A stretch of DNA of 64,000 nt. Origin: Lingula anatina. Taxonomy: Eukaryota > Animalia > Brachiopoda. Shown here piece by piece: positions 860 to 48,333 of this stretch. The notes under the pieces were generated by a model, which was not told the origin of the DNA, searched no databases, and saw only the letters and a program-made list of their open reading frames with translations. Position 1 is the stretch's first letter, and each line of letters begins with the position of its first letter. The DNA lies in NCBI GenBank assembly GCA_051362555.1, contig JBPQGU010000016.1, forward strand, positions 2,914,001 through 2,978,000, given 5' to 3'. A program made the translations under genes and the position numbers.

Positions 860-900
860 TTATTTTTTATAAATATTTTGTTTTTAATTTTACAAATAAC

Positions 901-3009: not shown

Positions 3010-3330
3010 ATGAAAATAATTTTAAATTTAAACAAAAAAGAAATATTAGAAAAAAAATTTAATATAAATTTAAAAGGTTATGATGCAAATGAAGTTGATT
3101 ATTTTTTAGATTTAATAATTAAAGATTATGAATCATGAGAACTTATGTCAAAAAATTATAAAGAAAAAATTTTAAATTTAAAAAATGAACTTGAAAAAAT
3201 AAAACAAGAAAAAATAAAACAAGAAAATCATATCATTAAATACAAAAAAGAAATAAAAGAATTAGAAGAAAAAAGTTCAAGTAATGTTGAACTTTTAAAA
3301 AGAATAAATAAATTAGAAGAAAAAAAATAA
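3010..3330 (+). CDS. gpsB: DivIVA-domain cell-cycle protein (GpsB-like)
   Basis: With TGA=Trp: LNKKEILEKKFNINLKGYDANEVDYFLDLIIKDYE (DivIVA signature) plus coiled coil; directly upstream of rnpB as in Firmicutes. Confidence 0.85.
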
Positions 3331-3351: not shown

Positions 3352-3650
3352 GACTTGATTTTATTCAATTGCTGGTATTATTTTTTAATATTAGAGGAAA
3401 GTCCTTCCTAACACAATCTGCGATGATTGTAGTGTTTGAGTCTTTAGAAACAAAGAACAATTATTATAAATAATTGATGACTAGTGCCACAGAGACGAGT
3501 AATGTGAAACGCGGTAAACTCCTCAAGTTAGCAACCCAAATTTTGGTAGGGGCATTAAGAGATGATAAATGAATCAAATCTTAAATCTTTTTTAAAAAAA
3601 GATAGATAAATAATTGAACTAGACAGAAGAAGGCTTACAAAAATCAAGTC
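3352..3650 (+). ncRNA. rnpB: RNase P RNA (bacterial type B)
   Basis: P1 ends GACTTGATTT / AAATCAAGTC; conserved GAGGAAAGTCC, AGTGCCACAGAGACG, GTGAAACGCGGTAAACTCC, GCAACCCAAA, GATAAATAATTG and ACAGAA..GGCTTAC elements. Confidence 0.93.
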
Positions 3651-10354: not shown

Positions 10355-11251
10355 ATGATAACTTTCAAAATAGAAAAAGAAAAAATTGAAAAATTAATAA
10401 AAAAATATTCTTTTAAAGAAAAAATAAATCAAAATTATTCTTTTTGATTTAAAAAATTTAATGATTTTACTGTTTCTATTTATAAAAGTAATAAAATTTT
10501 ATTTCAGGGAAATGAAGAAAAAATAAATAATTTTTTAAATGAGGAAAAAATAAATAATTTTTTAAATAAAGAAAAAATAAATAATTTTTTAAATAAAGAA
10601 AAAATAAATAATAAAGAAAAATATCAATTGTTTGAACATATTGGTTGTGATGAATCTGGTGTAGGAGATTATTTTGGTCCAATAATTTTAACTGTTTTTA
10701 AATATGATAATAATATTAAAAATTTAAAAATATTTGAAAAAGTAAAAGATTCAAAAAAAATAAATGTAAAAAAAATATTAGAAATAGGTAAAGAATTAAT
10801 AAAATTAAAAAATAATTTTAAAATATACAAAATTTCAAATGAAGAATTAAATGAAAGTGTATTAAATAAAAATATAAATTCAAAAGAAATTTTATTAATT
10901 AAATATATTAACTTATTAAAAAATAAAATATTTAAAAATAATATAGAAATTATAATTGATGGTTTTATAAATAAAAATACTTTTAATAAATATTGTTTAA
11001 AAAATAAAATATTTAAAATACCTAAAATTAAATTAATTCAAAAAGCAGAAGAAAAATATATTGCTGTAGCATCTGCTTCAATAATAAGCCGTTATTTCTT
11101 TTTAAAAGAAATTGAAAGTATTGAAAAAAAATTAAATATTAAAATTCTTTTAGGTGCAAACAAAAAAGTTAAAAAACAAATAAAAGAATTGTTAAAAAAT
11201 AAAGAAAAAAATGAAATTAAAAAATATATTAAATTATTCTTTAATATTTAA
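10355..11251 (+). CDS. rnhC: Ribonuclease HIII
   Basis: TBP-like N-terminus (TVSIYKSNKILFQG), catalytic IGCDESGVGDYFGP, KDSKK, IIDGF, KAEEKYIAVASASIISR. Confidence 0.92.
10511..10612 (+). repeat. In-frame 27-bp tandem repeat (~3.8 copies; N-E/K-EKINNFL) in the RNase HIII linker
   Basis: AAT(G/A)A(A/G)GAAAAAATAAATAATTTTTTA repeated at 10511, 10538, 10565 and partially at 10592. Confidence 0.9.
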
Positions 11252-16279: not shown

Positions 16280-16555
16280 TTAAGATATTGAAAAACAATA
16301 ACCATGTTTTTTAATTTTTTTAATTTTACCATTATAAACAAATAAAATCCCACTTAAAAAATCAATAATTCTTCTTCTTTCTTTTTGTTCTAAATTATCA
16401 AGAAAAACACAAATTTTTTTTTCTTTTAATAAAATTTCTGCAATTTGTTTTGTATCCATATAAGATTCAGGAAAAACTTCTCTAATTGAAGTTATACCTG
16501 TTCTATTTTTTTGAAAATCTTTTTTTTCTTCTTTCTTTTTAAAAAAATTAAACAT
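16280..16555 (-). CDS. sepF: Cell division protein SepF
   Basis: PESYMDTKQIA...RRRIIDFLSG..F...G; downstream of ftsZ. Confidence 0.88.
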   Translation of the reverse strand: MFNFFKKKEEKKDFQKNRTGITSIREVFPESYMDTKQIAEILLKEKKICVFLDNLEQKERRRIIDFLSGILFVYNGKIKKIKKHGYCFSIS

Positions 16556-16560
16556 AATCT

Positions 16561-17688
16561 TTACATAAATGGCGGAATGTCATCTTCATTATCATCATTT
16601 CCATCATCTTTATCTAATTTAGAAATATTTTCATTTTCTTTTTTATATAAATCATCTTCATTATTAAAAATATTATTTTTTTCTTTTTCTAATTCTTTTA
16701 TTTTAGTTTTTTTTGAAATATTTTCTAAATTAGCATATTTTATTTCATTTTCATCAAAATCAATTGCAATTAAAGAAATGATCATTTTTTCTTTTAATTC
16801 TTTATTCATTTTTTGACCAAACATTAAATCAACATCACCACCAGATTTTTCTTTTATAAAATCCATAGCTCTATTTATATCAATTAAATTTGTTTTATCT
16901 CCTGTTAAAACAAATATAATTGCTTTTTTTGATCCTTTAATAGATGCCTCTAAAAATTTGCAACTTGTTGCAAGTCTTGCAGCAGCAATTGCTTTACCAT
17001 TACCTTCAGCTATTCCATAACCAAAAAATGTATTTTTTGCATCTTTTAATAATCTTTTAACATCTGCAAAATCTAAATTAATATTTGCTGGTGAAATAAT
17101 AATATCAGTAAAAGTATCTACAACATTTTTAATATTTTCATTTGCAACATTAAATGCTTTATTTAATGGTATTTCTCCAAGTTCTTCTAATAATTTATCA
17201 TTTGAATAAATTATTAATGAATCTGTTTCTTTTTTTATTTCTTCAATACCTTTATTTGCATTTGCAGTTCTTAAACTACCTTCAAAAGTAAATGGTTTTG
17301 TAACTATACAAACAACTAAAATACCAATTTCTTTTGCAATTCTTGCAATTACTGGAGTTGCTCCTGTACCTGTACCACCACCTAAACCACAAATTAAAAA
17401 TAAAAGATCTGTACCTTCAAGATGTTTTTTAATATCTGAAATTGATTCTTCTGCTGCTTTTTTACCAGCAATCATATCTGAACCGGCACCTAAACCTTTT
17501 AATGTCTTTGGACCTAAAAATATTTTTTCTTCTGCACTACTATTTAAAAGAGCTTGTGAATCTGTATTTGCTGCAATAAAGTTAACACTTTCTAACTCAA
17601 AATCCATAATATGATTTACTGCATTACAACCAGCACCACCTACACCTAAAACAGTTATTTTTGGAATATAATATCTACTTGTATCCAT
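16561..17688 (-). CDS. ftsZ: Cell division protein FtsZ
   Basis: GVGGAGCNAV, GLGGGTGTG, NLDFAD, C-terminal DIPPF. Confidence 0.98.
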   Translation of the reverse strand: MDTSRYYIPKITVLGVGGAGCNAVNHIMDFELESVNFIAANTDSQALLNSSAEEKIFLGPKTLKGLGAGSDMIAGKKAAEESISDIKKHLEGTDLLFLICGLGGGTGTGATPVIARIAKEIGILVVCIVTKPFTFEGSLRTANANKGIEEIKKETDSLIIYSNDKLLEELGEIPLNKAFNVANENIKNVVDTFTDIIISPANINLDFADVKRLLKDAKNTFFGYGIAEGNGKAIAAARLATSCKFLEASIKGSKKAIIFVLTGDKTNLIDINRAMDFIKEKSGGDVDLMFGQKMNKELKEKMIISLIAIDFDENEIKYANLENISKKTKIKELEKEKNNIFNNEDDLYKKENENISKLDKDDGNDDNEDDIPPFM

Positions 17689-17703
17689 AATTAAATTATT
17701 AAA

Positions 17704-18849
17704 TTAATTATATATAATTTTGTTCTTTAAATGATGGTAATAAGCATTACCAATTAAAAAAGAATCATTATAATTTTTTATACCAACAAATAATGGGTTA
17801 TGTTTTTTAAATTTAATGTTTTCAAAAGTTGCTTCAAGCATTTCAAAAATACCACTAATATTTGTAATATCATTAATTAAAAATCAAACACTATTATTCT
17901 TCTTTTCATCATATAACTTTGAATTAATTTTACTAAATACTGATTGAAAATAATTAATAAAAGCTTCTTTTAAAAAATCACTCATTTTTTTTGCTTTTTC
18001 ATCATGTGCTTCATAATAAATATCAAAAACTTTTTCCCTTTTTGGATCCAAATTTATTACATTATATAAATATTTTTTTATTATCTTAAATTCATATCCT
18101 GTTTTTTTACAAAAAATTTTTAAAAACTCATCTATGCCTTCTTTAATAGTAAAAAATTTTGTAAATACTTTATTTTCAAAATTAAAAACTTGTATTTCTT
18201 TTTCTTTTCAATTTAAAATAACAACATCTTTTTCTTTTTGTGAAAACAATAAACTAATATAAATTGCATATGGTAATAATAATGGTGGTAAAACTTGTAA
18301 TTTAAAATTTTTAAAAATATTTTCATAAAAAAATAAATTTTCTCAATTTTCATAATAAATAAAAGCATCAAATTTTAAAGAACTAACTGTTTTACCGATT
18401 GGAAAATAATCATAAGATTCATTTGAATCTATTAAATAATATTTATTTATTTTAGAAAAAACAATTTCTTTTTTTTCTATATTTAATATACTTTTTTTAA
18501 AATTATCATTTAAAATTTCAAATTCTTTTAAAGTTATTTTTTTTGGTTCTCTAAAATTATAATAAAATTCTTTCTTTTTTATAACTAAATCATAAATATC
18601 AATATTGTAATAAATTTTTTGAATTTTAAAACTTAATTCATTTTCAACTTCATAAATTAATTCTTTTAAAAACTTAATTGCTTTTTTTTGATTTAAAAAA
18701 ATATTATCCTCTTCATTTTCAAGGTGTTTTTTTTTATTAAATAAAATATAAAATTGTGAAAATTCATAAACACAAACTATTAAACTTACATAGTTTTTTC
18801 TAAAATCAACTACTGAATAAATTTCTTTATTAGAAAAATTGTTTTTCAT
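17704..18849 (-). CDS. ftsA: FtsA-like cell division protein (diverged)
   Basis: ~381-aa frame via TGA between rsmH and ftsZ; N-terminal YSVVDFRKNYVSLIV resembles the FtsA first strand. Confidence 0.65.
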
Positions 18850-18852
18850 AAT

Positions 18853-19737
18853 TTATATTTTTTCTACAATTCTTAATTTTGCACTTCTAGCTTGTCTATT
18901 ATTTAAAATTTCTATTTTTGTTGGAATAATTGGTTTCTTTGTTATTATTTTAATATTTTTAGAAGAATTAAACACATTTTTAACAATTCTATCTTCTATT
19001 GAATGATATGAAATTACTAATATTTTCCCACCAATATTTAATAAATCAATTGATTTTTTTAAAGATTCTTCTAAAACAACAAATTCATTATTTACTGCAA
19101 TTCTTAGTGCTTGAAAAATTTTTCTTCCTGGATGTTTTTTTAATAAAACTTTTTTTGGTAAAGATAATTTTAAAATATTTATTAATTCTTCAGTTGTTTT
19201 TATTGGTTTTTCATTTCTTTTTTTAATAATATTTGTTACAATTTTATTAGAAAATTCTTGTTCACCATATTCTTTAAAAATTTTATTTAATTCTTCTTTA
19301 GAATATTCATTAATTATTTTTTCAGCAGTTAAAAATTGGTTTTGATCCATTCTCATATCTAATTTATTACTATTTTTATAACTAAAACCTCTATTTTTAG
19401 AATACATTTGATGAGCAACAAATCCTAAATCATAAAAAATTCTATCTACTTTATAAATGTTTTTTGAATTTAATACTTCTTTTATATTTAAAAAATTAGT
19501 TTTTATAAACTCATAATTTTTATTTTTAAATTGATTTTTAAAATTCTTATTTGATATTTCTATACTTTCTTCATCTTGATCAAATCCATATAAAAAAGAA
19601 CCATCTTTTGAATTTTTTAAAATAGAAAAAGCATGTCCTCCTTGTCCTAATGTACAATCAACATAAATTGCTTTTTTACAAGAAATTATATTTTCAATAA
19701 CTTCTTTTAAAAGTACAGAAATGTGTTTTTTAAACAT
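18853..19737 (-). CDS. rsmH: 16S rRNA m4C1402 methyltransferase
   Basis: HISVLLKE, DCTLGQGGH, RGFSY..LDMRMD, FQALRIAVNNE, ISYHSIEDRIVK, RSAKLR. Confidence 0.97.
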   Translation of the reverse strand: MFKKHISVLLKEVIENIISCKKAIYVDCTLGQGGHAFSILKNSKDGSFLYGFDQDEESIEISNKNFKNQFKNKNYEFIKTNFLNIKEVLNSKNIYKVDRIFYDLGFVAHQMYSKNRGFSYKNSNKLDMRMDQNQFLTAEKIINEYSKEELNKIFKEYGEQEFSNKIVTNIIKKRNEKPIKTTEELINILKLSLPKKVLLKKHPGRKIFQALRIAVNNEFVVLEESLKKSIDLLNIGGKILVISYHSIEDRIVKNVFNSSKNIKIITKKPIIPTKIEILNNRQARSAKLRIVEKI

Positions 19738-19926
19738 CTATTTATTTTTTGTTTTTACTTTAATTATTGATTCACCTTTAAAGAAACCGCATTTTTTACA
19801 TACAATATGCATTTTCTTTTTAATTGCACAATTAGTACAATTTACTAAACTTGTTTCTCTTAAAAAATCATGTGATCTTCTAGAACGTTTTTTTTGTTTC
19901 GATGTTCGATGTTTTGGAACTGCCAT
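19738..19926 (-). CDS. rpmF: 50S ribosomal protein L32
   Basis: MAVPKHRTSKQKKRSRRSH...CTNC..HIVCKKCG. Confidence 0.97.
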   Translation of the reverse strand: MAVPKHRTSKQKKRSRRSHDFLRETSLVNCTNCAIKKKMHIVCKKCGFFKGESIIKVKTKNK

Positions 19927-20170: not shown

Positions 20171-23146
20171 CTATCTTTTCAATAAACTTATTGTATTTAC
20201 TTTTTCTTTTTTTATTTTTATTTTGTTTTCTTCTTCTATTATTGGACCCATATGTTGTTTATTTTTTTTTCATAAATAAAATAATGTTCCCCTATGATTA
20301 TAAGCAATGTTTTTAACCCTTACACCATAAAAAACAAAAAGTTCTCAAAACAAATCTTGAACTTGTTTATAATTTTTTGCATTTTTAAAGCTTGTTAAAT
20401 AATGTGTTATTTTATTTTCAAACAAAGTATCTACATATTTTAATGTTTGTTTTAATGACAAAAACTTATTGAATCTTGCTTCATCAAATAATACATATTC
20501 TCTTAAAAATCAACCAAATCATTCAATTTCATTATGAGTTACAGAATTAATACATGAAATTGAAGAATACTCATTAAAATTTCCATATTTATCTATAAAA
20601 ACTTTATTATAATTAAATATTTCATTTTCTGGTTTTGATTTAATTTTTTCTCAAAAAATTTGTGTTGGTTTATTTCAAGATTTAATAACTTGTCTTTTAT
20701 ATCTAGATAATATTTGAGTTCATTTTTCTTTTTTTAATAATTTTGTTTTCAATTGTTTTATTTTTTCATTTAATTTAGATATTTGATTTTTTGTTTGTAA
20801 AATTTTAGAATCTAAGTTTGAAATTTCACTTGCTTTTTGAGAAATTTGAGCATTTAAATCTGAAATTTCAAAATCTAATATTTCTTTTTTTATTCTTAAA
20901 ATTTCTAATTCTTCATTTTTAATTTCTAATAAAGAATTAACTTCTTTTAATTTATTTTCTTTTTCTTGTATTTGAGTTTTTAAATTAGAAATTAATTTTT
21001 CATTTTTATCAATTTCATTTTGTTTTTTTATTAATTGATCTGATAATTTTTGTTTTTTAACTTTATTTGTTTCTAAATATTGTTTTATATTATTAAAATC
21101 TATGTTTTTTTTAGATAAAACTTCTTCTAATTCTTTAATATTATTATTTAAATTTAAAATTTGTTCTTGTTTTTGTAAATTTTGTTCTTTTAATTCTTTA
21201 ATATTATATGAAATTTCTTTAATTTGTTCAGTTTTTAATGTAATTTCATTTTGTAAGTTTGAAATTTGAAAATCTTTTTTTAAAATTAATGTATTTTTTC
21301 TCTTAATGTCAGATTCTAAATTTGAAATTTCTGTTTTTATTTGTGATTTTTTATTAATTAAATTAGAAATTTTTATTAAATTTTCTTTAATAATATTTTT
21401 ATTTTCTTTAATTTGATTATTTTTAGAAATTATATTTCTTGCTAATTTACAATCAAAAATTTCTTTTTTTGAAATTTCATTCAATAAATTTTCTTTTTGA
21501 ATTTGTTTTTCAATGATTTTTTTATCTAAAACATCTTTTCTTTCTTTTAAATTATTAAATTCATAATTTAAAATAAAGATTTTTTGTGTTTTTTCTTCTA
21601 ATTGAGATTTTAAATCATCAATTGAATTTTTTAAATCTTGTTTTTCTAAATTTAATTTGTCTAAATCAGAAATTTGTTTTTCAATTTTTTCTAGTTTTTT
21701 TTGTTTTGTTAATAATTCTTTATTTAGCTTTTGTAATTTTTCTTTTTGTTTTGAGTATTGTTTTTTATATTTTTCTGATTCTTTATTTAATTCTATTTCT
21801 TTTTTTAATAATTTTAATATTTCTTTATTTAATATAAAAGCATTTATTTCTTTTTCAATTTGTGTTTTAAAACTATTTTCAAATTTTAATTGATTTTTCA
21901 AAAATTCAATTGCTTCACCACAAATTTTTATTTTTTCATCAATATCAATATTTGAATTTGTTGATGTTAAAAACATATAGTTAACTATATTTAAATCATG
22001 ATCTTTTAAAAATATTTTTGTAAACTTTAAAATTTCTGAATGTGTAACTGTTTTTGTTAATAAAAATATTTTGTTTAATTTAAAAATCTCTTCTTTTTTT
22101 AAATTTAAAGATTTTATAATTTCTTTAATTTTTATCATTGAATTATCAAAAAACATATTTTTAAATTTTTGATTTATTATTCTTTGTTTTATTTTTTTTT
22201 TATTTAAAAAAATAATATTTTTAGAAATTTTATATAGTCCTTGTAAAATATTTTGTTTAAAATATTCTTTATTTGTTGTAAGTTTTTTGTTATCTTCTAT
22301 AATTTTTGTTAATAATTCTGTTTTATATTTTTTTTCTCAAACCTTTTTTACATAGTCAACAAAATTAGAAATTTCTTTTTTTGTTTTTAATACATCAAAT
22401 GTGTTGTGTTTAATTATTTTGGCAATTGTAAGAATAAATTGTGTTACTGCAAATACTGAAGCAACTTTAGGAATCGGGTTCAAAGATAAAACACTTAAAC
22501 TTGTATCAATATGATGATCAATTTGTTTATTTCCAAACAAGCTTGTTATATCCAAAACTTTTTTATTAAATTGTTCAATAATTAACTCTAATGATGAAGT
22601 TTTTTCTCTAAGTGAATCTTTTAATTTTGAAATTTCAGATTTATTATCAGATATTGTTTTACAATTTTCTATTGATTGTTTTCATAAATTAAAATTTTTT
22701 TCAATTTCCAAAAAATAAAATTTAAATTCATTTTGATTTTGTAAAATCTTTAAATTGTCTTTTTGATTTTTTAAATCTTTTTCTTTTTTATTTCATTTAT
22801 TTTCTATTATTAATAACTTTTTTTTATATAAATCTAATTGTTTTTGATATTTTATTTCTATTTCATTAATTTTTTTATTACATTTTTTATTAATTTCTTT
22901 TATTAAATTGAATAAAATATCATTAATTTTTTGTATTTTTTCAGATTCAGATAAATTTTCATTATAAGTAATATTTTTAATATCCTCAAAACTTGTATTA
23001 TTCATAATATTAAAATTAGAAAAAAATGAACTTTTATTTTTTTATTTTTTTTTATTGAAAAAATATATTTCTTTTAATATATTATTTTTAAATAATAAAG
23101 AAAAAGAAAAAATACAAAATAATTTTTTTATTTTTAACTTTTTCAT
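20171..23146 (-). CDS. Large secreted coiled-coil protein with variable C-terminal domain, copy B2 (~990 codons; in-frame TAA at 23042-23044)
   Basis: MKKLKIKKLFCIFSFSLLF signal-like start; supplied ORFs at 22793, 22337 and 20720 are one frame via TGA; C-terminus VIKSWNKPTQIFW...LFWELFVFYGVRVKNIAY; TAG at 20171. Confidence 0.8.
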
Positions 23147-23190
23147 TAAAATTATTTTTTTATATTTTACAATAAAATATATATCATCAA

Positions 23191-23220
23191 AAAAATTATA
23201 TAACTAAAATCTTATAAAAA
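23191..23220 (-). promoter_or_regulatory. Putative promoter of B2 (TATAAT -10 box), identical to 30861-30890
   Basis: 30-bp perfect duplicate (TTTTTATAAGATTTTAGTTATATAATTTTT on - strand) ~45 bp upstream of the ATG. Confidence 0.6.
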
Positions 23221-23412
23221 AATAAGGTTTAGAATTCTATTTTAAAAAACAAAAATTTATTATTTATAAATTAATTTAAAAATTTTTCTATTCTTCTATA
23301 AATTATTATAGTTTTTTTCTTTTTTTTATACATTTAATATAATGTGTTGTATTAATTATTAACAACAAAAATATTGAATAATTTAAAATATTTTATAAAA
23401 AAATATAATTTT

Positions 23413-24038
23413 TTATAATCATTCTTTAATATAATTGTTTGGAATTTCTTTATGTCCATTTTTTGCAAATCATTCTTTATATAATTCATCGTAAATCACT
23501 CTTCTAAAATTTCTCTTTTCATTTTTTTCTTCAACACAAGCAACAATACTTAAAACATTAATATCAGGTCATTTTTTTTGTAATATTTTTTCATATTTTT
23601 TTGAAATTCTTAAATCTGCTTCGCTTGGGAATAAATCAAAAATAGAATCATCATCAAGGTGGTTGTGAATTAATAAAACTTTTTCTTTGTTTTCATTTTC
23701 AAGTTTTTCTATTATTTCATTAATATTAGAGGCATATACTCGTGTTGGGTGTTTGTCTGTTCTACAAATTATTTTTTTTAAAGAAAAATCTTTATTAACA
23801 ACAAAAACCATATAATATTCATATTTTTTATGTTCTAATTTTTTAAATTCATTTAATATAAATTCTTTTTCTTTTTGTGTTAAAATTTTTTCTGTTGATA
23901 AAATTCTAGGTTTAATTGGTGGTTTTGGTGGTTTTGGTGGTTCATATATTGAAAAAAAAGACCAAAACCAATTATTAGAATTGAAATTAAAATAAAAAGT
24001 TTGTATTTATGTTTTTTTATTTTATTAAAAATTTTCAT
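23413..24038 (-). CDS. Membrane-anchored JAB/MPN+ (JAMM) domain protein, copy J2 (1-nt frameshift in A8 at 23952-23959)
   Basis: MKIFNKIKKHKYKLFILISILIIGFG TM helix, PPKPPKPP linker, KYEYYMVF, LLIHNHLDDDSIFDLFPSEADLR (HxH..PSxxD). Confidence 0.78.
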
Positions 24039-24094
24039 ATAAATCCATTTTATATTTTTTTATTTTATAAAAATTTTCATATATATTTAACATT

Positions 24095-25145
24095 TTAACA
24101 AGTTCTGTAACAATTAGGTTCTCAATAATTTCTATCTCATCTATTTTTTCTTAAACCATAAAACAAATAACCTTTTTCTTTTCAAGCAATGTTTTTAACT
24201 CTTACACCATAACCAGCAAAAAGTTTTCAAAATAATTCTTTTACTTTTTTAAAATTTGATGCATTTCTAAAATCATTTATAAATTCATTTATTTTAATTT
24301 CATAATCTGAATTTACATATTTTAATACTTGTTTTAATGATAAAAATTTATTTCAATTTCCTTCATCAACTAATATATATTCATATAAAAAGTTTTCAAA
24401 TGGTTCAGATTCTTCAAAAGCAGAAGAATGAGAGTTATAAAATAATCCACTCCGAGATATTCAAAAATTTGAATATCTAAAACTTTCTGAATCTGAATAT
24501 CCATCTATTATTTTTCAAAACTCTTTTGTTGGTATATTTCAAGATTTAATAACTGCGTTTTTGTGTCTTAATAATATTTCGTTTAATTCTTCTACTTTTT
24601 TAAATTCATCTTGTAATTTTCCAATTTCAGAATTTAAGTTTGAAATTTGAGTTTCTTTTTGAGAGATTTAAGTGTTTAATGTATCAATTTCTGTTTGTTT
24701 TTGAGAAATTTGAGTGTTTAAGTCTGAAATTTCTTTTAATTTTTTATTATACAAATAATTTAAATAAGCTAACATCATATTTTTTTCTCTCAATTCTGTA
24801 TTAACTTCATTTAATCTATTTGTTTTTTCCTTTATTTGATTTATTAAATAAGAAATAACTATTTCTTTTAAATTAATTTCTTGTTGTTTTTGTTCTAATT
24901 GAACTGACAATTCTTGTTTTTGAACTTTCATTTGATCTAATTCTTGTTTTATATTGTTAAAATCTATGTTTTTTGAGATAAAGATTGTTCTAATTCTTCA
25001 ATATTATTATTTAAACTTAAAATTTGTTCTTGTTTTTCTTTATTTTCTGTTTCTAATTCTTTAATATTATCTAAAATTTGTTTAATTGTTTCAGTTTTAG
25101 AATTAATATCAGAATTTGGATTTATAATTTCAGTTTCTTTTTTTA
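24095..25145 (-). pseudogene. Start-less orphan cassette B3: last coiled-coil repeats plus a third variant of the C-terminal domain
   Basis: Near-identical DNA to B1 repeats (MKVQKQELSVQLEQKQQEINLKEIVISYLINQI); frameshift at T6 24969-24974; CAA>TAA at 24668; C-terminus VIKSWNIPTKEFW...LFWKLFAGYGVRVKNIAW; no ATG or signal peptide at its 5' end. Confidence 0.8.
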
Positions 25146-25180
25146 ATTAATATTTTTTTTATTTAAAAAATTATAAATTT

Positions 25181-25803
25181 CTATAATCATTGTTTAATAT
25201 TATGTTTTGGATTTATTCTAGATTTTTTTACTCATTCTTCTCATAATTCATCATACAATACTCTTCTAAAATTTCTCTTTTCATTTTTTTCTTCAACACA
25301 AACAACAATACTTAAAACATTAATATCAGGTCATTTTTTTTGTAATATTTTTTCATGTTTTTCTGCAATTCTCATATCTGCAATGCTAGGAACTAAATCA
25401 AAATTAGAAGGAGGATGATTATGAATTAATAAAACTTTTTCTCTGTTTTCGTTTTCAAGTTTTTCTATTTTTTCATAAATATTAGATAAAACTTGTGTTG
25501 GGTGTTTGTCTGTTTTTTCATATATTTTTTTTAAAGAAAAGTCTTTGTTAACAACAAAAACCATATCATATTCATATTTTTTATGTTCTACTTTTTTAAA
25601 TTCATTTAAAATAAATTCTTTTTCTTTTTTTGTTAAATATTTTTCTGTTGATAAAATTCTAGGTTTAATTATTATTGGATTTGATGTTTTTGATTCTTTT
25701 GGAAATTCATATATTGTAAAAAAAATACCAAAACCAATTATTAAAGTTGAAATTAAAATAAAAAGTTTGTATTTATGTTTTTTATTTTATTAAAAATTTT
25801 CAT
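25181..25803 (-). CDS. Membrane-anchored JAB/MPN+ (JAMM) domain protein, copy J1 (1-nt frameshift in T6 at 25778-25783)
   Basis: Paralog of J2; TM KLFILISTLIIGFGIFFTIY; KYEYDMVF; LLIHNHPPSNFDLVPSIADMR. Confidence 0.78.
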
Positions 25804-25929
25804 ATAAATCCATTTTATATTTTTCATTATTTTTTAAAAAAAATTTTCATATATATTTAAAGTTTCAACATCACATATAACAACAGAATAATGATTGATA
25901 AAAATGACAAACAATTAATTTAATTAAAA

Positions 25930-28900
25930 TTATCTGTAATAAAATCTGAAAAGAATTGAATTATTATTTAAATTTTTATGTATTTTAACTCTTACACCAT
26001 AACTTGAAAAAAGTTCTCAAAATAATTCTTTTACTTTCTTAAAATTTGATGCATTTCAAAAATTATTTTCAAAATCTTCAATTTTAGACTCATAATTTGA
26101 AACAGTATGACGTATTCGATTTCTTAATGAGAAAAAATTATCATTGTTGTCAATTGAATATCTTTCTTTATAAAAAGAAGAATCAGTTTCTAAAACAAAC
26201 TTAAACAAAAAACGTGAAAATGATTGATATTTTTCATAACGTCATCCACCAACGTCTGATTCATTTTTTCCATTTGGTTTAGAACTATAAAAATTTCCAT
26301 ATTCATCAACAACACAAGTTCGAATATTAAAACTCCCTGAATTTGGAATTTTTTTTCAAAATTCTTGTGTTGGTGTGTTTCAAGACGCAATAACTGCATC
26401 TTTGTATCTTTTTAATATTACATTTAATTCTTCTACTTTTTGAAATTCATCTTGTAATTTTCTTGTTTTATTGTTTAATCTATCAATTTCTGATTGTTTT
26501 TGTGAAATTTGAGTATTTAGGTCTGAAATTTCAGTTTCTTTTTGAGAGATTAATGTGTTTAAGTTTGAAATTTCTTTTATTTTGTTGTTTTTTAAAACAA
26601 TTAAATAACGTAACATTATATTTTTTTCTCTTAATTCTTTATTAACTTCATTTAATCTAATTGTTTTTTGTCTTATTTGATTTATTAAATAAGAAATAAC
26701 TATTTCTTTTAAATTAATTTCTTGTTGTTTTTGTTCTAATTGAACTGATAATTCTTGTTTTTGAACTTTCATTTCATCTAATTCTTCTTTTATATTATTA
26801 AAATCTGTGTTTTTTTGAGATAAAGATTGTTCTAAATCTTCAATATTATCATTTAAACTTGAAATTTCAGTTTGTTTTATTGTATTTTGTGTTTCTAATT
26901 CTTTAATATCATCTGAAATTTGTTTAATTGTTTCAATTTTTGAGTTAATATCAGAATTTAGATTTGTAATTTCAGTTTCTTTTTGAGATATTAATGTGTT
27001 TTTTGTGTTAATTTTTGTTTGTAAGTTTGAAATTTCAGTTTCTTTTTGAGAGATTAATGTGTTTTTTGTGTTAATTTTTGTTTGTAATGTTTGTTTTTGT
27101 GTATTTAAAGTTTGTAACTCTTCATTTTTAGTTTGTAATAAACCATTAACTTCATTTAATCTGTTTTCTTTTTCTTGTATTTGAGTTCTTAAATCAGAAA
27201 TTAATGCTTCTTTTGTGTTAATTTCTGTTTGTTTTTGTTCTAATTGAACTGACAATTCTTGTTTTTGAACTTTCATTTGATCTAATTCTTGTTTTATATT
27301 GTTAAAATCTATGTTTTTTTGAGATAAAGATTGTTCTAAATCTTTAATATTATTATTTAAATTTAAAATTTGTGTTTGTTTTTTTGTATTTTGTTCTACT
27401 ATTTCTTTAATGTTATCTGAAATTTGTTTAATTGTTTCAATTTTTGAATTGATTTCAGAGTTTAATCTTTGAATTATAGTTTCTTTTTGTAAGATTAATG
27501 TGTTTTTTGTGTTAATTTCTGTTTGTAAGTTTGAAATTTCAGATTCTTTTTGTGTAATTAATTTTTCTTTATTATTAATAGTTTCAGTTTTTAAGTTAAT
27601 TTCAGTATTTAAATCTGAGATTTGAGTGTTTAATGTATTAATTTCTGTTTCTTTTTGAGAGATTTGAGTGTTTTTTGTGTTAATTTCATTTTCTAAGTTT
27701 GTAATTTCAGTTTCTTTTTGAGAGATTTGAGTGTTTAAGTCATTTAATAAAGTTGTTTTTTCTACAATTAAATTATTAATTCTATTTAATTCTGCTGTTT
27801 TTAACTCAATTTGTAAATCAATCTTTTCAATTTCAATTTCAACATCTCTTATTTCATTTTCTTTATTTCTAATATTTACTTCATCTAAATTAATTTGAGA
27901 TTTTAAGTTCTCTAAATTTTGTCTTTGTGTTTCTAACAAAGAAAGATCATTATTAGATTTTGTTTGTTTTTGTTCTAATTCTAAAATTTGAGATTCTAAG
28001 TTTTCTTGTGTTGTTAAATCAGAATTTAATTCTTCTTTAAATTCATTTAATGAATTTAAAAAGTTTGTTTTTAAAGTATTTAAATCTGTTTTTAGTTTTT
28101 GTAAACTTGAAATTTGAAAATTTAAATTATTCTTTTGAGTGTTTAAGTCTGAAAGTTCAGAGTTTAAATTAGTTTTTTGAGTATTTAAGTCTGAAAGTTC
28201 AGAGTTTAAATTAGTTTTTTGAGTATTTAAGTCTGAAAGTTCAGAGTTTAAATCTGTAATTTGAGAGTTTAGATTTAAAAGTTCTAATTCTTTTTGTTTT
28301 TTTTGATTGTCTAAATCTGTAATTTGAGAGTTTAGATTTAAAATTTGAGTGTTTAATGTATTAATTTCAGATTCTTTTTGAGATATTAATGTATTTTTTG
28401 TGTTAATTTCATTTTGTAATGTTTGTTTTTGTGAAATTAATTCTTGTTTTTGTGTTTCTAAATTTGAAATTTCAGATTCTTTTTGTTTTTTTTGATTATT
28501 TAAATTAGAAATTTCTAATTCCTTTTCTTTAATAACATTTTCATTTTCTTTAATTTCATTATTTTGAAAAATTATATTTCTTGCTAATTCACCATCAAGA
28601 GTTTGTTTTTGTGAAATTTCATTTAATAAAGTTTCTTTTTCAAGTTTTTTTTCAATAATTTCTTCATCTAAATTATATTTTTGTTCTACTAAATCATTAA
28701 ATTCATCATTTACAATTTTAAGGTTTTGTTCTTCTAATTGAATTTGAGATTTTAAATAATTAATTTCTGATTCTAATTCTAAAATTTGAGATTCTAAATT
28801 TGTAATTTGAGTTTCTAATTGTTGTTTTCTTACATTTAAATATGAGATTTGAGTGTTTAAATCTGAAATTTGATTGTTTAATGTATAAATTTCTGTTTGT

Positions 28901-30817
28901 TTTTGAGAGATTTGAGTGTTTTTTGTGTTAATTTCTGTTTGTAATTTTTGTTTTTGTGTAATTAATTCTTGTTTTTGTGTTTCTAAATTTGAAATTTCAG
29001 ATTCTGTTTGTTCTTTTTGGTTATTTAAACAAGAAATTTCTGTTTGTTTTTCTTTAATAATATTTTCATTTTCTTTAATGTGATCTTGTTGAGAAATTAT
29101 ATTTCTTGCTAAAACACCATCAAGAGTTTGTTTTTGAGAGATTTCATTTAATAAATCTTCTTTTTCAATTTTTTTTCATTAATTTCTTCATCTAAATTAT
29201 CTTTTTGTTCTGTTAAAGTATCAAATTCATCATTTAAAATTTTAAGATTTTCTTTTTCTTTTTTTAATTCATCTTTTAATTCTTGAATAGAATTTTCTAA
29301 TTCTTGTTTTTCTAAATTTAATTTTTCAATTTCTTTTGTTAAATCATCAATTTGTTTTTCAAGTATTTCTTTTACTTTTGTTTTTTTATTTATTTCTTCA
29401 TTTAATATTTTTAACTCTAACTCTTTTTTTTGTTTTTCTTTTTTATAATCTTCTAATTTCTTATTTAACTCTATTTCCTGTTTTAATAATCTTAAAATTT
29501 GTTTTGTTAATTTAAAAGCATTTATTTCTTTTTCAATTTCTGCTTTTCTAATATTATTTTCATATTTTAGTTGTTTTGTTAAAAATTCAATTGCTTTATT
29601 ACAAATTTTTACTTTTTCATCAATATCAATATTTGAATTTGTTGATGTTAAAAATAAATAATTTACTACATTTAATTTATGATCTTTTAAAAATATTTTT
29701 GTAAATTCTAAAATATCAGAATATTTAACTGTTTTTGTTAATAAAAATATTTTGTTAAATTTAAAGATTTCATCTTTTGTTAAATTTAAAAATTTTATAA
29801 TTTTTTTAATTTTGATAATTGAATTATTAAAAAACATATTTTTTAATTTTAGATTTATTACTCTTTTTTTTATTTTTTTATTATTTAAAAAAATAATGTT
29901 TTGAGAAATTTTATATAATTCTTTTAAAATATTTTGTTTAAAATGTTTGGTATCTGTTTTAAGTTTTTTATTTTCTTCTTCTAATTTTTTTATTAATTCT
30001 TCTTTTTGATGTTTTTCTCAAATTTTTTTTAAATCATCTACAAAATTAGAAATTAATTTTTGTATTGCTGGAACATCTTCTTGATTATGTTTACCCACTT
30101 TATAAAATGAAATAGTCATTTGTGATATTCCGGCTGCAACATTAACACCTGGAATTAAAGATGCAATATTTAAAGTTATATCAATGGCATAATCAGTATT
30201 TAGATCTACAGACATACTTAATGTTTTAAAAATTTTGTTCTTTAAATCATCTTTAAGTTTTGTTCATGATGGAGTTGTTTCAAGTTCGGATTTTAACTTT
30301 AAAATTTCAGCATTATTATTTAATATTATTTGTAAATTTTTTTTTGATTTTTTTCATAAATTAAAATTTTTTTCAATTTCAAAAAAAGAAAATTCAAATT
30401 CTTTTTGATTTTTAAAAATATCTAAATTTTCTGTTTTATCCTTTAATTCTTTTTCTTTTTTATTTCATTTTTTTCTATTATTAATAATTTTTCTTTATAT
30501 AAATCTAATTCTTTTTGATGTTTTATTTTTAATTCATTATTTTTTTTATTTCATTTTTTACAAATTTCTTTTTCTAAATTTAATAAAATATTATTAATTT
30601 GTTGTTTTTGTTCAGATTCAGATAAAACTCTACTATAAACAACTTTTTTAATACTTTCAAACCCTTTATTATTTAAAGCATCAAAATTAGAAAAAACTGA
30701 ATTTGCTTTGTCTTTATTTTTATTATTTAATAAATATATTTCTTTTAATATTTTAGTATTTGCAAATATAGATAATGAAAAAAATACAAAAAGAGTTATG
30801 ATTTTTAACTTTTTCAT
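25930..30817 (-). CDS. Giant secreted coiled-coil repeat protein with variable C-terminal domain, copy B1 (~1630 codons; frameshifts at 30468-30474 and 29169-29176)
   Basis: MKKLKIITLFVFFSLSIFA signal peptide; hydrophobic segment IASLIPGVNVAAGISQMTISFY; continuous open frame ~29170 to 25930 of heptad repeats; C-terminus VIASWNTPTQEFW...LFWELFSSYGVRVK. Confidence 0.82.
26960..27085 (-). repeat. 63-bp tandem duplication (QTKINTKNTLISQKETEI(S/T)NL) in B1
   Basis: Two near-identical 21-codon units visible in the supplied 26380..27939 translation. Confidence 0.8.
28133..28252 (-). repeat. 42-bp tandem repeat x~3 (LNSELSDLNTQKTN) in B1
   Basis: TTTTGAGT(G/A)TTTAAGTCTGAAAGTTCAGAGTTTAAATTAGTT repeated on the + strand. 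Confidence 0.88.
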
Positions 30818-30860
30818 TAAATTTATTTTTTTATTTTTTGAAACTAAATATACCATCAAT

Positions 30861-30890
30861 AAAAATTATATAACTAAAATCTTATAAAAA
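30861..30890 (-). promoter_or_regulatory. Putative promoter of B1 (TATAAT -10 box), identical to 23191-23220
   Basis: Same 30-mer at the same distance from the paralogous ATG. Confidence 0.6.
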
Positions 30891-31499
30891 CATAGGAATT
30901 GGTATTCCATATAAAAAAGCAAAAATCGTTGCAGATAAAATTATTTCTAATGACATATTTGAAACATCTATTTCTAAATTATTTGTTAATTTATAATCTT
31001 TTTTAAAATTATTTCTAAATAAATTAATATCAAAGTTTTTATATATTTCTGTAAATTCTTGTATCTTATTTTTATATTTGTTTTTTCAATCAATAAATTT
31101 ATTTTTATATATTTTTTTATTTATATCTTCTGTTTTAAAAATAAAATTATAATCCAACTTATATTCTTTAAAAATTTCTAAATTTTCAGAAGTAAAAATA
31201 TTTGGAATATTTTCTTGTGTTAAAAAAGAATTAAAATTATTTTTTAATTTAAGTTTATATGTATCCTGTTTAGTTTTTGCTTGTATTTTTTCTAATTCTT
31301 TATCTATTTCAATTTTATTTTGATCTACATTTTTTTCATCTTTATTTTTTAATTTTTTATGATGTGATTTTGAAATATCAATTAAAAGTTTAATAAAAAA
31401 TGAACTAGTTACAATTAATATACAAATAATAATTATTAAAAATCAATGATTTAAAAAAAATTTATTAATTTTTTTAAAAAAATTAAAAAAATATTTCAT
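30882..31499 (-). CDS. Hypothetical membrane-anchored protein heading the accessory locus (gene A, 205 aa)
   Basis: Open with TGA=Trp; N-terminal TM (WFLIIICILIVTSSFFI) and hydrophobic C-terminus (IILSATIFAFLYGIPIPMFL); missed by the ORF track. Confidence 0.65.
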
Positions 31500-33837: not shown

Positions 33838-34899
33838 TTATTTTCTTTCTAGTTTGTTTTTATAAAAATCTCTAATATCTGAAATTCCATATTTTAACAT
33901 TGTAATTCTTTCTATACCAACACCAAAAGCAATAACTTTTAAGTTTTTACTTTTATTACAATTTTTTAAAACTTCAGGTGCAATTATTCCGCCACCTAAT
34001 ATTTCAATTCATCCTGTATTTTTACAAATTGAACATTCATTTGTGTTTTTACAAAATCAACATTCAACATCTAATTCTAATGATGGAACAGTAAATGGAA
34101 ATGCATTTGTTCTAAATCTAATTTCTTTATCTTTACCAAATAAAAATTCTGTAAACTTTTTTAAAATTCATTTTAAAGTTGCAATTGATGCTTCTTTACT
34201 TATAAAACAAACATCTAATTGTAAAAATTGATGTGTATGTGTTTGATCATCTTCATCATTTCTATATACATTTCCAATAGTATAAAAAAAAGATGTTTTA
34301 TTTATACTTTCATCAAAATTCATTAATGTTCTAGCTGTAAAGTTTGTACAGTGAGTACGTAAAAGTAAATTTTTATTTAAATAAAATGTATCACTTTTAG
34401 CTCTTGATGGGTGGTCTTTTTTAATATTTAAAAAATCAAAATTATACTTAACTTCTTCAATATCATTACTTTCAATAAAAATTGAATTAAATTTATCAAA
34501 AAATATATGTATTTTATTAATAATTAAATTTAATGGATGTGCTATTCCTAAATTATTATTAATTATTGGTTTTTCATCTAAAACACGTGTACATAATAAT
34601 CCATTTATTTTTTTAAATTTTTCAAAAAGTTTAATTTCTTTAACATCTAAATTCTCTGAAAAATTTAATTTTTTAGCAAATTCGTCAAATTTAATTTGAA
34701 TTAATTCTTTTATCTCTTTAAGTTTTGATCCATATTCTTTCTTTTCATTTGAACTTAAATTAGAAAAAATTTTATTTAAATTTGATTTTTTACCAATTAA
34801 AGAATTTTTAATTACTAATAATTCATGGTAATTTTTAGCTTCTTTAAATTTAATATCTAAGTTTTTTTTTATATGTAAAATTTCATTAATTAATTTCAT
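33838..34899 (-). CDS. pheS: Phenylalanine--tRNA ligase alpha subunit
   Basis: [59 protein letters not shown]. Confidence 0.96.
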
Positions 34900-35977
34900 T
34901 ATTAATGATTTTATCTTTTTTATTATTTTCTTTTATTTTTAAAATTTCTGGTTCAATTTTTGAATTAACTGTTTTTTCAATTTTATTAGTAAGTTTTTGA
35001 ACTGATATATTAAAATCTTTTTTATTATTAACTATTGTTTCAAGTTTATTATCAATTTTTATTCAACGTTCTTTTAATCTGTTTGATTCAACTAAAATTT
35101 GTTTAAATGATTCAACTATTTTACTTAAATTCTTTTTAAGTTTTCTATCTCTTTCAAATAATGCAATTAATCTTAAAACAGCAGGTATAGTTGAAGAAGA
35201 AGTAAAAATAACATGTTTTGATAAAGCATATTTTCTTATATCTTCTAAATCTCTTTTACTATGAATAAAACTAAATAATGTTTCAGATGGTAAATAAAGA
35301 AAAACTTGTTCTACATCATCAATTTTTGAAATATATTTACTACTTACATTATTAATATGATTTTTTAAATGTTTTTTTAATAATGAAATCTCTTTATTAT
35401 ATTCATTAGTATTTTCTTTTAACTTTATAATCTTTACAAAATTATCAAATGGAAATTTACTATCAATTGCAATTCCACCATTATTTGTTTTTAAAAAATA
35501 ATCTGGTCTATTACCATTTTTTAAAGTATATTGTGGAATAATTATGTCTTCGTTTTCATTAAAACATTCTTCTAAAACTCATTTTAATGAAATTTCACCA
35601 AACTCTCCTCTTTTATAATTACTTGTAAAAACTTGATTTATAATTTTAATTTCATCAGATAATTTTGATGTTTCTCTATTTAAATTTTCAGTTTGAAATT
35701 GAGAAACTTTTTCTAAATTATTTAATGTTTTAACAATTGTTTTTAAATCGTTATCTTGATTTAATTGTCTATCTTTTATTGTTAATTGAAAATCTTTAAT
35801 TTTATCAATATTTAAATTTTGACTTTTTAAAATTAAAAGATCATTTGAAATTTGTTTTAAACATTCTTTATCTAAATTATTTTTATTTTCTTTAGAAAAA
35901 TTTTTATATAAAAAGAAACAAATTACTAAAAATAAAAAAGCAATAAATACTAATAAAACAATTGGTAAAGTATCCAT
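34886..35977 (-). CDS. rmuC: DNA recombination protein RmuC
   Basis: N-terminal TM and coiled coil, KRGEFGEISL, QYTLKNGNRPD, IAIDSKFP, LYLPSE. Confidence 0.9.
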
Positions 35978-46952: not shown

Positions 46953-48294
46953 CTTCTGAAAACTCCATAAAAGTTTGTTTTTCGGGAAAAAACATTATAT
47001 CTATTTTACCTGTTGGACCATTTCTATGTTTTGCAATATTTATTTCTGCATTATGTGGTATTAAATTATAGTCTTTTATATTATCTACTGTTTTTTTTAT
47101 ATAATAATGTTCTCTATATAAAAACATAACCACATCTGCATCTTGTTCAATTGAACCAGAGTCTCTTAAATCAGATAATAAAGGATGCTTATTTTCTCTT
47201 TTTTCAACACCTCTTGATAATTGTGAAAGACACAAAATAGGAACATTTATTTCACGTGCTATTTCTTTTAATTGACGTGTTCAATTTGAAACTTCTAAAT
47301 TTCTATTATTATAATTTTGTTGTCCTTTTATTGAACTTAAAAGTTGTAAATAATCAATAACAATCAAAGCAATTTTACGTCTTCTTTTTCAATCTCTTAA
47401 TTTAAAACCAATTTCTGCAACATTAATACTACTTGAACTATCAATAAAAATTTTTTTACTTTTTAAATTTTCTATAAAATTTAACTTTAAATTTTGATTA
47501 AATTCTTCTTTATACATTGAAAAAAAATCAGTTCTTGATCTAATAATTTTTTTTGCTAATTGTTCTGATGACATTTCTAATGAAAAAAAAATTACATCTC
47601 CATCTTCATTTTTTTGATCTACAATTGGAGAAATAAAATTTAATGCTAAAGTTGTTTTACCCATTGATGGTCTTGCAGCCAAAATAATTAAATCGCCCTT
47701 TTGAAAACCTTTTAACTTTGTATCTAACTTTGAAAAACCAGTTTTAAACCCATTAACATCTTGTTCAGAATAATGTTTGGCTTCTTTAAAAAATGTTTTT
47801 ACAATTTTTGATAATGGAATAAATTTTTTAAAATTTCTATTAAAAAAATCTTCAATATCATTTAATTTTTCTCTTAATTTTGAAATTAGTGCATCAAAAT
47901 CAGAGCTTGTTTTTGTTTCACTTATAAGTGATTTTAATTCTAATTCTATTTTTCTTTTAGTTGAATTTTTAATTAATGCTTCAACATATATTTGCATCAT
48001 TGAAGTTGGAACATATATATCAACAATTTCTGTTAAATAAATCCAACCACCAATTTTTTTAATATCACCATCTAATTCTAATTTTTGAGCAAGAAGATTT
48101 AAATCTAATGTATTTTTATTTATCAAAAATAATTCTTTAATTTTCTTAAAAATAAATTGATTTTTAGAATCTACAAAGTCTTCCTCTCTTATTTTAGATA
48201 AAATCTCTTCACGTTTTTCATTTGATTCTAAAATAAAATGAAGTATTGCTTTTTCAATATTTTCAGATGAAATTGAATTATAATCTTGTTTCAT
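46942..48294 (-). CDS. dnaB: Replicative DNA helicase
   Basis: ILAARPSMGKTT, FFSLEM, IDYLQL, LSQLSR, LSDLRDSGSIEQDAD, IAKHRNGPTG. Confidence 0.97.
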
Positions 48295-48333
48295 TATTTA
48301 TTCTTTTATTATAAATTTTTTTATATTTTCAAA

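What the first reader, a model, noticed from the sequence alone, without database searches (positions are those of the whole stretch)
20171..31499. Candidate new system: polymorphic giant coiled-coil surface proteins paired with membrane-anchored JAMM proteases, plus an orphan C-terminal cassette
Seen: in transcription order, gene A, B1 (signal peptide, hydrophobic segment, ~1000-aa heptad stalk, variable tip), JAB gene J1, start-less tip cassette B3, JAB gene J2, a duplicated promoter, then B2. The locus sits between core genes pheT and rpmF with no integrase or transposase. Established: 'full-length gene + partner, then orphan C-terminus + partner' is the layout of Rhs/CdiA polymorphic toxin loci, and silent cassettes drive vlhA/vlsE antigenic variation. 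Inference: this is a modular host- or competitor-directed system in which swappable tips on a long stalk travel with a cognate exported JAB protease. I do not recognise it as a described Mollicute system.
Basis: partly seen in the sequence, partly recalled or inferred. Interest (0 to 1): 0.9.

Follow-up and report, generated by a model that had tools for sequence, protein, structure and literature searches.

The report
Broken rod-protein array with JAB partners
A wall-less bacterium found in a eukaryote's DNA carries a duplicated, now mostly broken set of genes for long rod-shaped proteins, likely displayed on its surface, beside two genes for a membrane-anchored zinc-enzyme domain predicted to face outward; the parts have no known relatives, but the set likely works like ordinary variable mycoplasma surface proteins and not like a toxin-swapping system.

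Summary
The layout is real: gene A, rod gene B1, JAB gene J1, start-less 3' fragment B3, J2, a duplicated promoter-like block and B2 lie between pheT and rpmF in a 17%-GC, TGA=Trp Mollicute. Public contigs reproduce the B3 tip in two studies. J1/J2 are RadC-type JAB domains with all five catalytic-motif residues behind an N-terminal membrane anchor; protease activity is unshown and RadC is the clade predicted to act on nucleic acids. The three tips are homologous (41-48%), have no detectable family or fold, and the B1/B3 tips differ at silent sites no more than their flanks, so they most likely diverged in place. B2 has no J. All five B and J genes carry breaks (seven in all), whereas flanking core genes show none, yet frames were kept open through most of the divergence. 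Best reading: a tandemly duplicated, Vmp/Vaa-like variable coiled-coil surface locus with a novel anchored JAB partner, recently inactivated or switched off in this strain. The anchored JAB is the new part.

The parts
30882..31499 (-). Gene A, 205 aa, intact; single N-terminal membrane helix after a Lys-rich start; no family
30818..30926 (-). Upstream block of B1 (end of A, TATAAT-containing spacer), repeated upstream of B2
   Evidence: promoter function inferred, scan at chance level
25930..30817 (-). B1: rod-protein gene of about 1630 codons in three frame pieces (breaks near 30470 and 29170): signal-like N-terminus, helical N-terminal domain, heptad stalk, tip
   Evidence: break near 29170 seen in contigs of X1 and X2
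30010..30310 (-). Variable, moderately hydrophobic segment of the B1 N-terminal domain (38% identity to B2; hydropathy 1.46 in B1, 1.68 in B2)
26420..29460 (-). B1 coiled-coil stalk, about 1010 residues, internal repeats of 21/42/63 nt and of about 500 nt
25933..26400 (-). B1 tip, about 155 aa, SWNxPTxxFW ... YGVRVK; no homologue or fold match found
25181..25803 (-). J1: Lys-rich start, membrane helix, linker, RadC-type JAB domain (E, HxH, x9, S, D); frame break near 25780
24095..25160 (-). B3: start-less 3' fragment (about 190 codons of stalk plus tip), frame break near 24970 and stop at 24668-24670
   Evidence: exact contigs in X1 and X3 over 24037-24861
23413..24038 (-). J2: paralogue of J1 (78% over 161 codons; E, HxH, x11, S, D; Pro-rich linker); frame break near 23955
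23147..23412 (-). Spacer: possible decayed remnant of gene A (weak, p about 0.03) followed by the duplicated upstream block (23147-23256)
20171..23146 (-). B2: rod-protein gene of about 990 codons; degenerate signal-like start, stop at codon 35 (23042-23044), then a 944-aa ORF (23005-20171) with a stalk of about 360 residues and a tip; no J gene follows

Best explanation
This is a tandem array of three paralogous genes or gene fragments for long coiled-coil rod proteins and two paralogous genes for a membrane-anchored RadC-type JAB domain, likely built by local duplication and deletion of one promoter-rod-JAB unit and likely serving as a variable host-facing surface coat, with every rod and JAB copy broken in this strain. 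Shown: paralogy, heptad stalk, N-terminal hydrophobic segments, JAB motif and fold class, breaks, frames kept open during divergence. Inferred: the rods are exported and hold a binding (adhesin-like) tip up to about 150 nm from the membrane, as proposed for Mycoplasma hominis Vmp; tips and the hydrophobic segment changed in place by amino-acid substitution and small indels; stalk length varies between strains in whole heptads; B3 is a 5'-truncated third paralogue; J has an N-in anchor with the zinc site outside and most likely hydrolyses host nucleic acid or nucleotides; the breaks are recent slippage and nonsense mutations from relaxed selection, some perhaps reversible.
For: Paralogy and unit boundaries. 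Period 3.5 stalk. J: Pfam RadC E 0.0013-0.0015, below cut-off; Foldseek ranks 1-5 are RadC 2QLC; VIA best 2QLC Z 7.2, rmsd 3.4, 107 aligned, and ranks 2-18 are all JAB/MPN-fold chains by their titles; profile of 18 Mollicute RadC aligns E, HxH, S, D and scores J1/J2 above 1000 shuffles (17.1 and 15.2 bits against at most 9.9). Anchor: hydropathy 2.38 against at most 1.42 in 27 Mollicute RadC ORFs. Selection: J pN/pS 0.78 against neutral mean 2.1 (2 of 300 simulations as low); tips 33-34% apart in DNA where neutral drift gives 16-17 stops (0 of 300 stop-free); B3 branch expected 7.3 stops, has 1 (p 0.006; p 0.04-0.12 if the branch is 3-4% long). Silent divergence equal in stalk, tip and J (7/70, 7/63, 11/125). 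Run X4 (third study) holds stalk contigs at about 89-95% identity, one joint removing a net 273 nt = 13 heptads, and a copy not broken at the 29170 site. RadC clade predicted to act on nucleic acids, PMC3239186 and PMC5512222 (passages). Vmp architecture and Vaa poly-A switching, PMC524362 (passages).
Against: No homologue, so no function by transfer; adhesion and nuclease activity are both inferred. Both models are weak (J pLDDT 46, tip 68) and Z 7.2 is in the range the tool calls middling. RadC itself has no shown activity, and PMC11981726 (passages) found only metalloproteases as its structural neighbours. Topology of B is open: a cleaved signal plus a membrane-spanning hydrophobic segment followed by Lys would put stalk and tip inside. 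Informative sites along B3 are clustered (permutation p 0.003, runs p 0.0001), which recombination would also give. Seven breaks at once are odd for simple decay; 4 of 7 were not covered by the contig pieces shown (32 of 1066 pieces listed). X4 contigs may be repeats or paralogues, not the B1 orthologue. No expression data.
Confidence: 0.55

Rival explanations
1. Silent-cassette antigenic variation with phase switches: B3-J2 is a donor copied into the expressed B1-J1 by recombination, and the short A/T runs are reversible ON/OFF switches as in M. hominis vaa.
For: B3 is start-less yet was kept open; conserved flanks enclose a variable tip (83%, 46%, 78%); clustered informative sites; recA present; six of seven breaks at A/T runs; X4 copy unbroken at one site; an 8-A tract switches vaa (PMC524362, passages).
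Against: Only one fragment; silent divergence uniform; B1 has two breaks and B3 a substitution-type stop that is fixed in two studies; runs of 6-9 are common in intact flanking DNA; a truncated former full gene explains the open frame equally well.
Confidence: 0.2
2. B proteins are membrane-anchored cytoplasmic coiled-coil scaffolds (HMW2-like or cell-shape role) and J is a neighbour carried along by duplication.
For: Signal-like N-terminus plus a second hydrophobic segment with acidic residues before and Lys after it; stalk matches SMC and the mycoplasma helix-rich family TIGR04523 below cut-off (112.8 against 270 bits); B2 lacks a J.
Against: The second segment is weakly hydrophobic and poorly conserved (38%); fast change of the distal tip and strain-variable stalk length fit an exposed protein; a needed scaffold would not be broken in all copies.
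Confidence: 0.12
3. One reading: a polymorphic toxin or effector system in which swappable tips travel with a cognate exported JAB protease or immunity partner.
For: Gene + partner, orphan C-terminus + partner order matches polymorphic toxin loci (PMC3482391, passages); J1/J2 differ in patches that include the active-site loop; JAB domains occur in such systems as toxin domains.
Against: Tips are homologous, not unrelated domains; no catalytic or toxin family in them; B2 has no J; J keeps a full catalytic motif, and in the passages read JAB is a toxin domain, not an immunity protein; uniform silent divergence.
Confidence: 0.09
4. B3-J2 and the breaks are assembly artefacts.
For: Homopolymer indels are a typical long-read error; X1 may be the source sample; no listed contig spans the whole stretch.
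Against: Exact contigs cover B3 tip to J2 start in X1 and in X3 (another study) and the J1-B3 junction in X1 and X2; J1- and J2-specific sequence at equal contig depth in X1; B3 and J2 differ from B1 and J1 by 10-35%; 35 of 48 flanking ORFs match NCBIfam models as single ORFs.
Confidence: 0.04

Closest known systems
Mycoplasma hominis Vmp, Lmp and Vaa (PMC524362, passages read)
   Same: Mollicute; signal sequence, coiled coil over most of a 1400-2200 aa protein, non-coiled C-terminal region, repeat-number variation, lineage-specific islet; Vaa has homologous 3' cassettes and a short poly-A frameshift switch.
   Different: No sequence link found (no LMP family hit; no direct comparison made); no Cys lipobox in B; here several paralogues in tandem, a detached start-less 3' fragment and a JAB partner gene.
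RadC-type JAB domain (PF04002; PDB 2QLC)
   Same: Fold class and E, HxH, S, D residues; best match by sequence and structure.
   Different: Membrane anchor in place of the N-terminal HhH region; H-to-S spacer 9 and 11, against 7 in all 27 Mollicute RadC ORFs examined; below the Pfam cut-off; predicted to face outward.
JAMM/MPN+ isopeptidases (PfJAMM1, CBASS Cap3, BubC, Rpn11)
   Same: Same fold and zinc ligands (Z 4.6-5.6).
   Different: Score below RadC; no ubiquitin-like or E1/E2 gene seen in the window; these are soluble intracellular enzymes.
Rhs/CdiA polymorphic toxin loci, Tox-JAB-1/-2 (PMC3482391, passages)
   Same: Full gene + partner followed by orphan 3' end + partner.
   Different: Tips are homologous and non-catalytic as far as tested; JAB is the partner, not the tip; one tip has no partner; no delivery system seen in the window.
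vlsE / vlhA silent-cassette systems (recalled, not read here)
   Same: Start-less fragment with conserved flanks and a variable core next to a full gene.
   Different: One fragment only, each with its own downstream gene; no conversion shown.

Membership tests
Polymorphic toxin system (Rhs/CDI type) | Full gene plus partner followed by an orphan C-terminal cassette plus partner | tested here: met
   B1-J1-B3-J2
Polymorphic toxin system (Rhs/CDI type) | C-terminal domains replaced by distinct, unrelated domains | tested here: not met
   Three tips align end to end at 41-48%; silent divergence not raised
Polymorphic toxin system (Rhs/CDI type) | C-terminal domain is a toxin (enzyme or pore former) | tested here: inconclusive
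   No Pfam, NCBIfam, PHROG, PADLOC or fold assignment
Polymorphic toxin system (Rhs/CDI type) | A cognate immunity gene follows each toxin or cassette | tested here: not met
   2 of 3 tips have a J; J is a catalytically complete JAB paralogue pair, 78% identical
Polymorphic toxin system (Rhs/CDI type) | Recognised delivery module (Rhs repeats, TPS, T6SS, T7SS) | tested here: inconclusive
   None in B or in 48 flanking ORFs; rest of genome not held
JAMM/MPN+ isopeptidase | Glu, HxH, Ser, Asp zinc motif in a JAB fold | tested here: met
   spacer 9 and 11 instead of 7
JAMM/MPN+ isopeptidase | Closer to peptidase JAB clades than to RadC | tested here: not met
   RadC ranks first in Pfam, NCBIfam, Foldseek and VIA; the model is low-confidence
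JAMM/MPN+ isopeptidase | Cleaves after ubiquitin-like C-termini | not testable with these tools
   needs an assay
RadC protein | Score above the PF04002 or NF000642 cut-off | tested here: not met
   18.9 and 19.1 against 22.1 bits; 16-17 against 180
RadC protein | Soluble, N-terminal HhH region, HNHP-x-S spacer of 7 | tested here: not met
   J has a membrane helix and longer spacers; 27 Mollicute RadC ORFs as control
M. hominis Vmp/Vaa-type variable surface protein | Signal sequence, long coiled coil, non-coiled variable C-terminus | tested here: met
   signal judged by eye and hydropathy only
M. hominis Vmp/Vaa-type variable surface protein | Sequence homology to Vmp, Lmp or Vaa | tested here: inconclusive
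   No such family listed; N-terminal domain search empty; no direct pairwise comparison made
M. hominis Vmp/Vaa-type variable surface protein | Reversible poly-A frameshift switching | tested here: inconclusive
   Breaks in short runs; one site differs between strains; contigs drop rare variants
M. hominis Vmp/Vaa-type variable surface protein | Surface location and adhesion | not testable with these tools
   needs experiment
vlsE/vlhA silent-cassette system | Segments copied from silent cassettes into an expression site | tested here: inconclusive
   Site clustering p 0.003 but uniform silent divergence; no strain assemblies

The most novel reading that the evidence does not exclude
J1/J2 are surface-displayed zinc deubiquitinases that strip host ubiquitin from a symbiont living inside host cells, co-duplicated and co-diversified with a host-binding rod protein: the first metalloprotease among bacterial deubiquitinase effectors, all of which are cysteine proteases according to a 2026 review (PMC13720258, passages).
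Probability: 0.12. Interest if true: 0.85.

Novelty: new variant of a known kind. Interest (0 to 1): 0.5.

Why it matters
Variable coiled-coil surface proteins are known in mycoplasmas, but a membrane-anchored, outward-facing RadC-type JAB domain was not found in any collection or paper searched here, and a 2012 survey states that all prokaryotic JAB domains known until then were intracellular (PMC3482391, passages). A small, stand-alone, exported RadC-type domain kept under purifying selection is a clean object for the open question of what RadC-type JAB domains do (nuclease or peptidase). The tip is a domain with no relative among 1.84 billion cluster representatives. The locus also records early decay or switching of a host-interface locus in a deep-branching symbiont.

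Tried and rejected
Homologue searches that found nothing: J1 in genome contigs (201 candidate stretches), protein collection (225 candidates; with the J alignment, 1631), metagenomes, viruses, plasmids and phages; 398 scored genomes of the order of G002 gave 1 hit at E 6.5e-4, covering profile positions 21-102 and with no HxH motif ORF in that locus, rejected. Tips: metagenomes, viruses, plasmids and phages, 0 of 398 genomes, and 1 hit among 1.84 billion representatives that is a 17-fold Ig-like repeat protein, rejected. N-terminal domain: 0 of 7993 candidates, no Pfam or PDB match. These blanks are limited by exact-word seeding and by TGA=Trp gene calls; the organism itself is absent from these collections (best RsmH match 49%). 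Tip fold: no Foldseek match at E 0.001, best VIA Z 3.8 to the colicin Ib channel domain, background level; neither shows a new fold. An anti-CRISPR PDB hit for J (E 0.13) was dismissed. pN/pS above 1 in tips and N-terminus was first read as positive selection, then rejected: AT-biased neutral simulation gives 1.4-2.5. Third-position differences are higher in the tip (40/138 against 31/248, p 0.0001) but vanish when only identical residues are counted. The excess of AT-to-GC changes on the B1 and B3 branches was not used, since parsimony inflates it. X4 has no cover in the three bins over the B1 and B3 tips; no contig joins across, so it is not evidence of different tips. No ESM Atlas look-up and no tip-J complex prediction were obtained, which leaves language-model look-alikes and binding open. 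No tRNA in the window. Look-ups of earlier findings gave nothing on this locus. Paper searches listed no description of an anchored JAB in a Mollicute; supplements were not read, and the alignments in the supplements of PMC3239186 and PMC3482391 may bear on the clade of J.
Full report
Setting. The window is 17% GC with TGA read as Trp, and its flanks are ordinary Mollicute core genes: 35 of 48 ORFs match NCBIfam models at E <= 1e-15, each as one ORF. No whole genome is held. No close relative is in the genome collection: the best of 80 kept RsmH matches is 49% identical. The order pheS-pheT-(one gene)-rpmF-...-rsmH-ftsZ-ileS is seen in 1 of those 80 loci (L080) and pheS-pheT shortly before rsmH in 3 more, so the 11.7 kb between pheT and rpmF is a lineage-specific filling of an old interval. 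Seven DNA runs of one coded eukaryote label, from four studies, hold part of the stretch; two hold more than half of its words. The bacterium is therefore host-associated; the host was not identified.

Observation. B1 and B2 align over 1.9 kb at 79%, tip end plus J over 0.96 kb at 80%. The B1 stalk is about 1010 residues with a single strong 3.5-residue period, about 150 nm if extended (standard coiled-coil rise, own knowledge). B3 starts mid-stalk about 20 nt after the J1 stop.

Real or artefact. Contigs of four runs were laid on 23420-30900 (32 of 1066 pieces listed). Exact pieces span the B3 stop and the B3-to-J2 junction in X1 and in X3, a different study; the J1-to-B3 junction in X1 and X2 (one study, X1 possibly the source); the B1 break near 29170 in X1 and X2. 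The B3 frame break lies 24-29 letters from the start of exact pieces in three runs, short of the 31 needed. The J1, J2 and 5' B1 breaks are not inside any listed piece and the B2 stop is outside the stretch laid. B3-J2 is real; 2 of 7 breaks are confirmed, 1 is suggested, 4 are unchecked. X4 (third study) holds stalk pieces at about 89-95% identity, is not broken at the 29170 site, and has a joint that removes a net 273 nt, exactly 13 heptads. Of 163 difference rows 40 were shown; these fall in 36 stalk codons, 29 change the residue, none makes a stop.

J1 and J2. Both have a Lys-rich start, a strongly hydrophobic helix (2.38) and a short, in J2 Pro-rich, linker, which by the positive-inside rule (established knowledge) puts the domain outside. 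The domain is JAB: Pfam RadC is the best family, below cut-off; a low-confidence model (pLDDT 46) hits RadC 2QLC first in Foldseek (E 0.009) and VIA (Z 7.2, rmsd 3.4, 107 residues); a profile of 18 Mollicute RadC domains aligns Glu, HxH, Ser and Asp and beats 1000 shuffles. RadC occurs in 30 of 400 genomes of the order of G002; the 27 ORFs recovered from those 30 loci all have a 7-residue spacer and none a comparable hydrophobic start (9 of 27 are under 200 aa and may lack their true start). J has spacers of 9 and 11, and the paralogues differ in patches that include this loop. J evolved under purifying selection. Passages of PMC3239186 and PMC5512222 argue that RadC-type JAB domains act on nucleic acids and lack the ubiquitin-tail groove; passages of PMC11981726 note that no activity is shown and that structural neighbours are metalloproteases. 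'JAMM protease' is thus possible but not the first choice.

Tips. The three tips are one homologous domain, 41-48% identical, without family, fold match or relative. In the B1-J1 / B3-J2 pair the tip is far more divergent in protein (46%) than stalk (83%) or J (78%), p about 1e-8. If a foreign tip had been swapped in, silent sites should be older there; among identical residues they are not (7/63 against 18/195, p 0.63). This test sees mainly the conserved parts of the tip, so exchange of short variable segments is not excluded, and informative sites are clustered. Apparent pN/pS above 1 lies inside the AT-biased neutral range of my simulation, but the tips stayed free of stops where drift predicts 16-17, and B3's own branch has 1 stop where about 7 are expected. 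So tips, B3 included, were functional while diverging. The simplest history is duplication of a promoter-B-J unit, later loss of the 5' part of B3 and of the J after B2; a weak trace of gene A before the B2 promoter block fits this (p about 0.03). A maintained donor cassette gives the same junction and remains the main rival. A second variable patch, the hydrophobic segment in the N-terminal domain (38% against 73%), has no family either and leaves the topology of B open.

Mechanism. Most likely (0.55): exported rods present a variable binding tip far from the wall-less membrane, stalk length changes by heptad repeats, and a co-located anchored zinc enzyme works on host material, probably nucleic acid; in this strain the locus has recently been inactivated or switched off. 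Architecture, paralogy, motif, selection and breaks are shown; export, adhesion, substrate and any B-J interaction are inferred.

Comparison. It works most like the M. hominis Vmp/Vaa proteins (PMC524362, passages) but membership is not shown. It shares only gene order with Rhs/CDI loci and fails two defining tests (PMC3482391, passages). J is RadC-like but not a RadC. PMC12633904 (passages) on Mollicute effectors has no occurrence of JAB or RadC in its main text. PMC2831843 (abstract and outline only) reports that short coding homopolymers can act as high-frequency off switches. Seven paper searches listed no anchored JAB in a Mollicute. vlsE, vlhA and HMW2 details beyond one search are recalled.

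Verdict. Observation confirmed, interpretation partly supported. New variant of a known kind; interest 0.5, carried by the anchored JAB and the orphan tip domain. If J proves to be a surface deubiquitinase (probability about 0.12) it would deserve 0.85.

Noticed in passing
window 856-2622 (+): Cytidylate kinase fused to the GTPase Der in one 588-aa ORF.
   Followed up: no
window 48294-48334 and 19737-19738: No room for rplI between the DHH-family gene and dnaB (40 nt), and no mraZ between rpmF and rsmH; both usual positions are recalled, mraZ-like ORFs precede rsmH in L006, L064 and L080.
   Followed up: no
window 3010-3330, 16280-18849: gpsB-like and ftsZ genes, with probable ftsA and sepF (by position, no family at E 1e-15), are kept in a 17%-GC wall-less genome.
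   Followed up: no
window 3357-3642 (+): RNase P RNA, class B.
   Followed up: yes
window 10510-10612: 27-nt in-frame tandem repeat, 3.8 copies at 96%, inside RNase HIII.
   Followed up: no
window 56931-58496 (-): 521-aa ORF with a hydrophobic N-terminal half fused to one ABC ATPase domain; no specific family.
   Followed up: no
window 34886-35977 (-): 363-aa membrane-anchored ORF before pheS that looks RmuC-like (recalled; no NCBIfam family at E 1e-15).
   Followed up: no
L105-L108: Four Mollicute RadC ORFs with an altered motif end (no Pro before the Ser, e.g. PSGISRF), a possible divergent RadC subgroup.
   Followed up: no
window 27195-27227 (+): Single terminator-like hairpin inside the B1 stalk on the opposite strand; near chance.
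   Followed up: no
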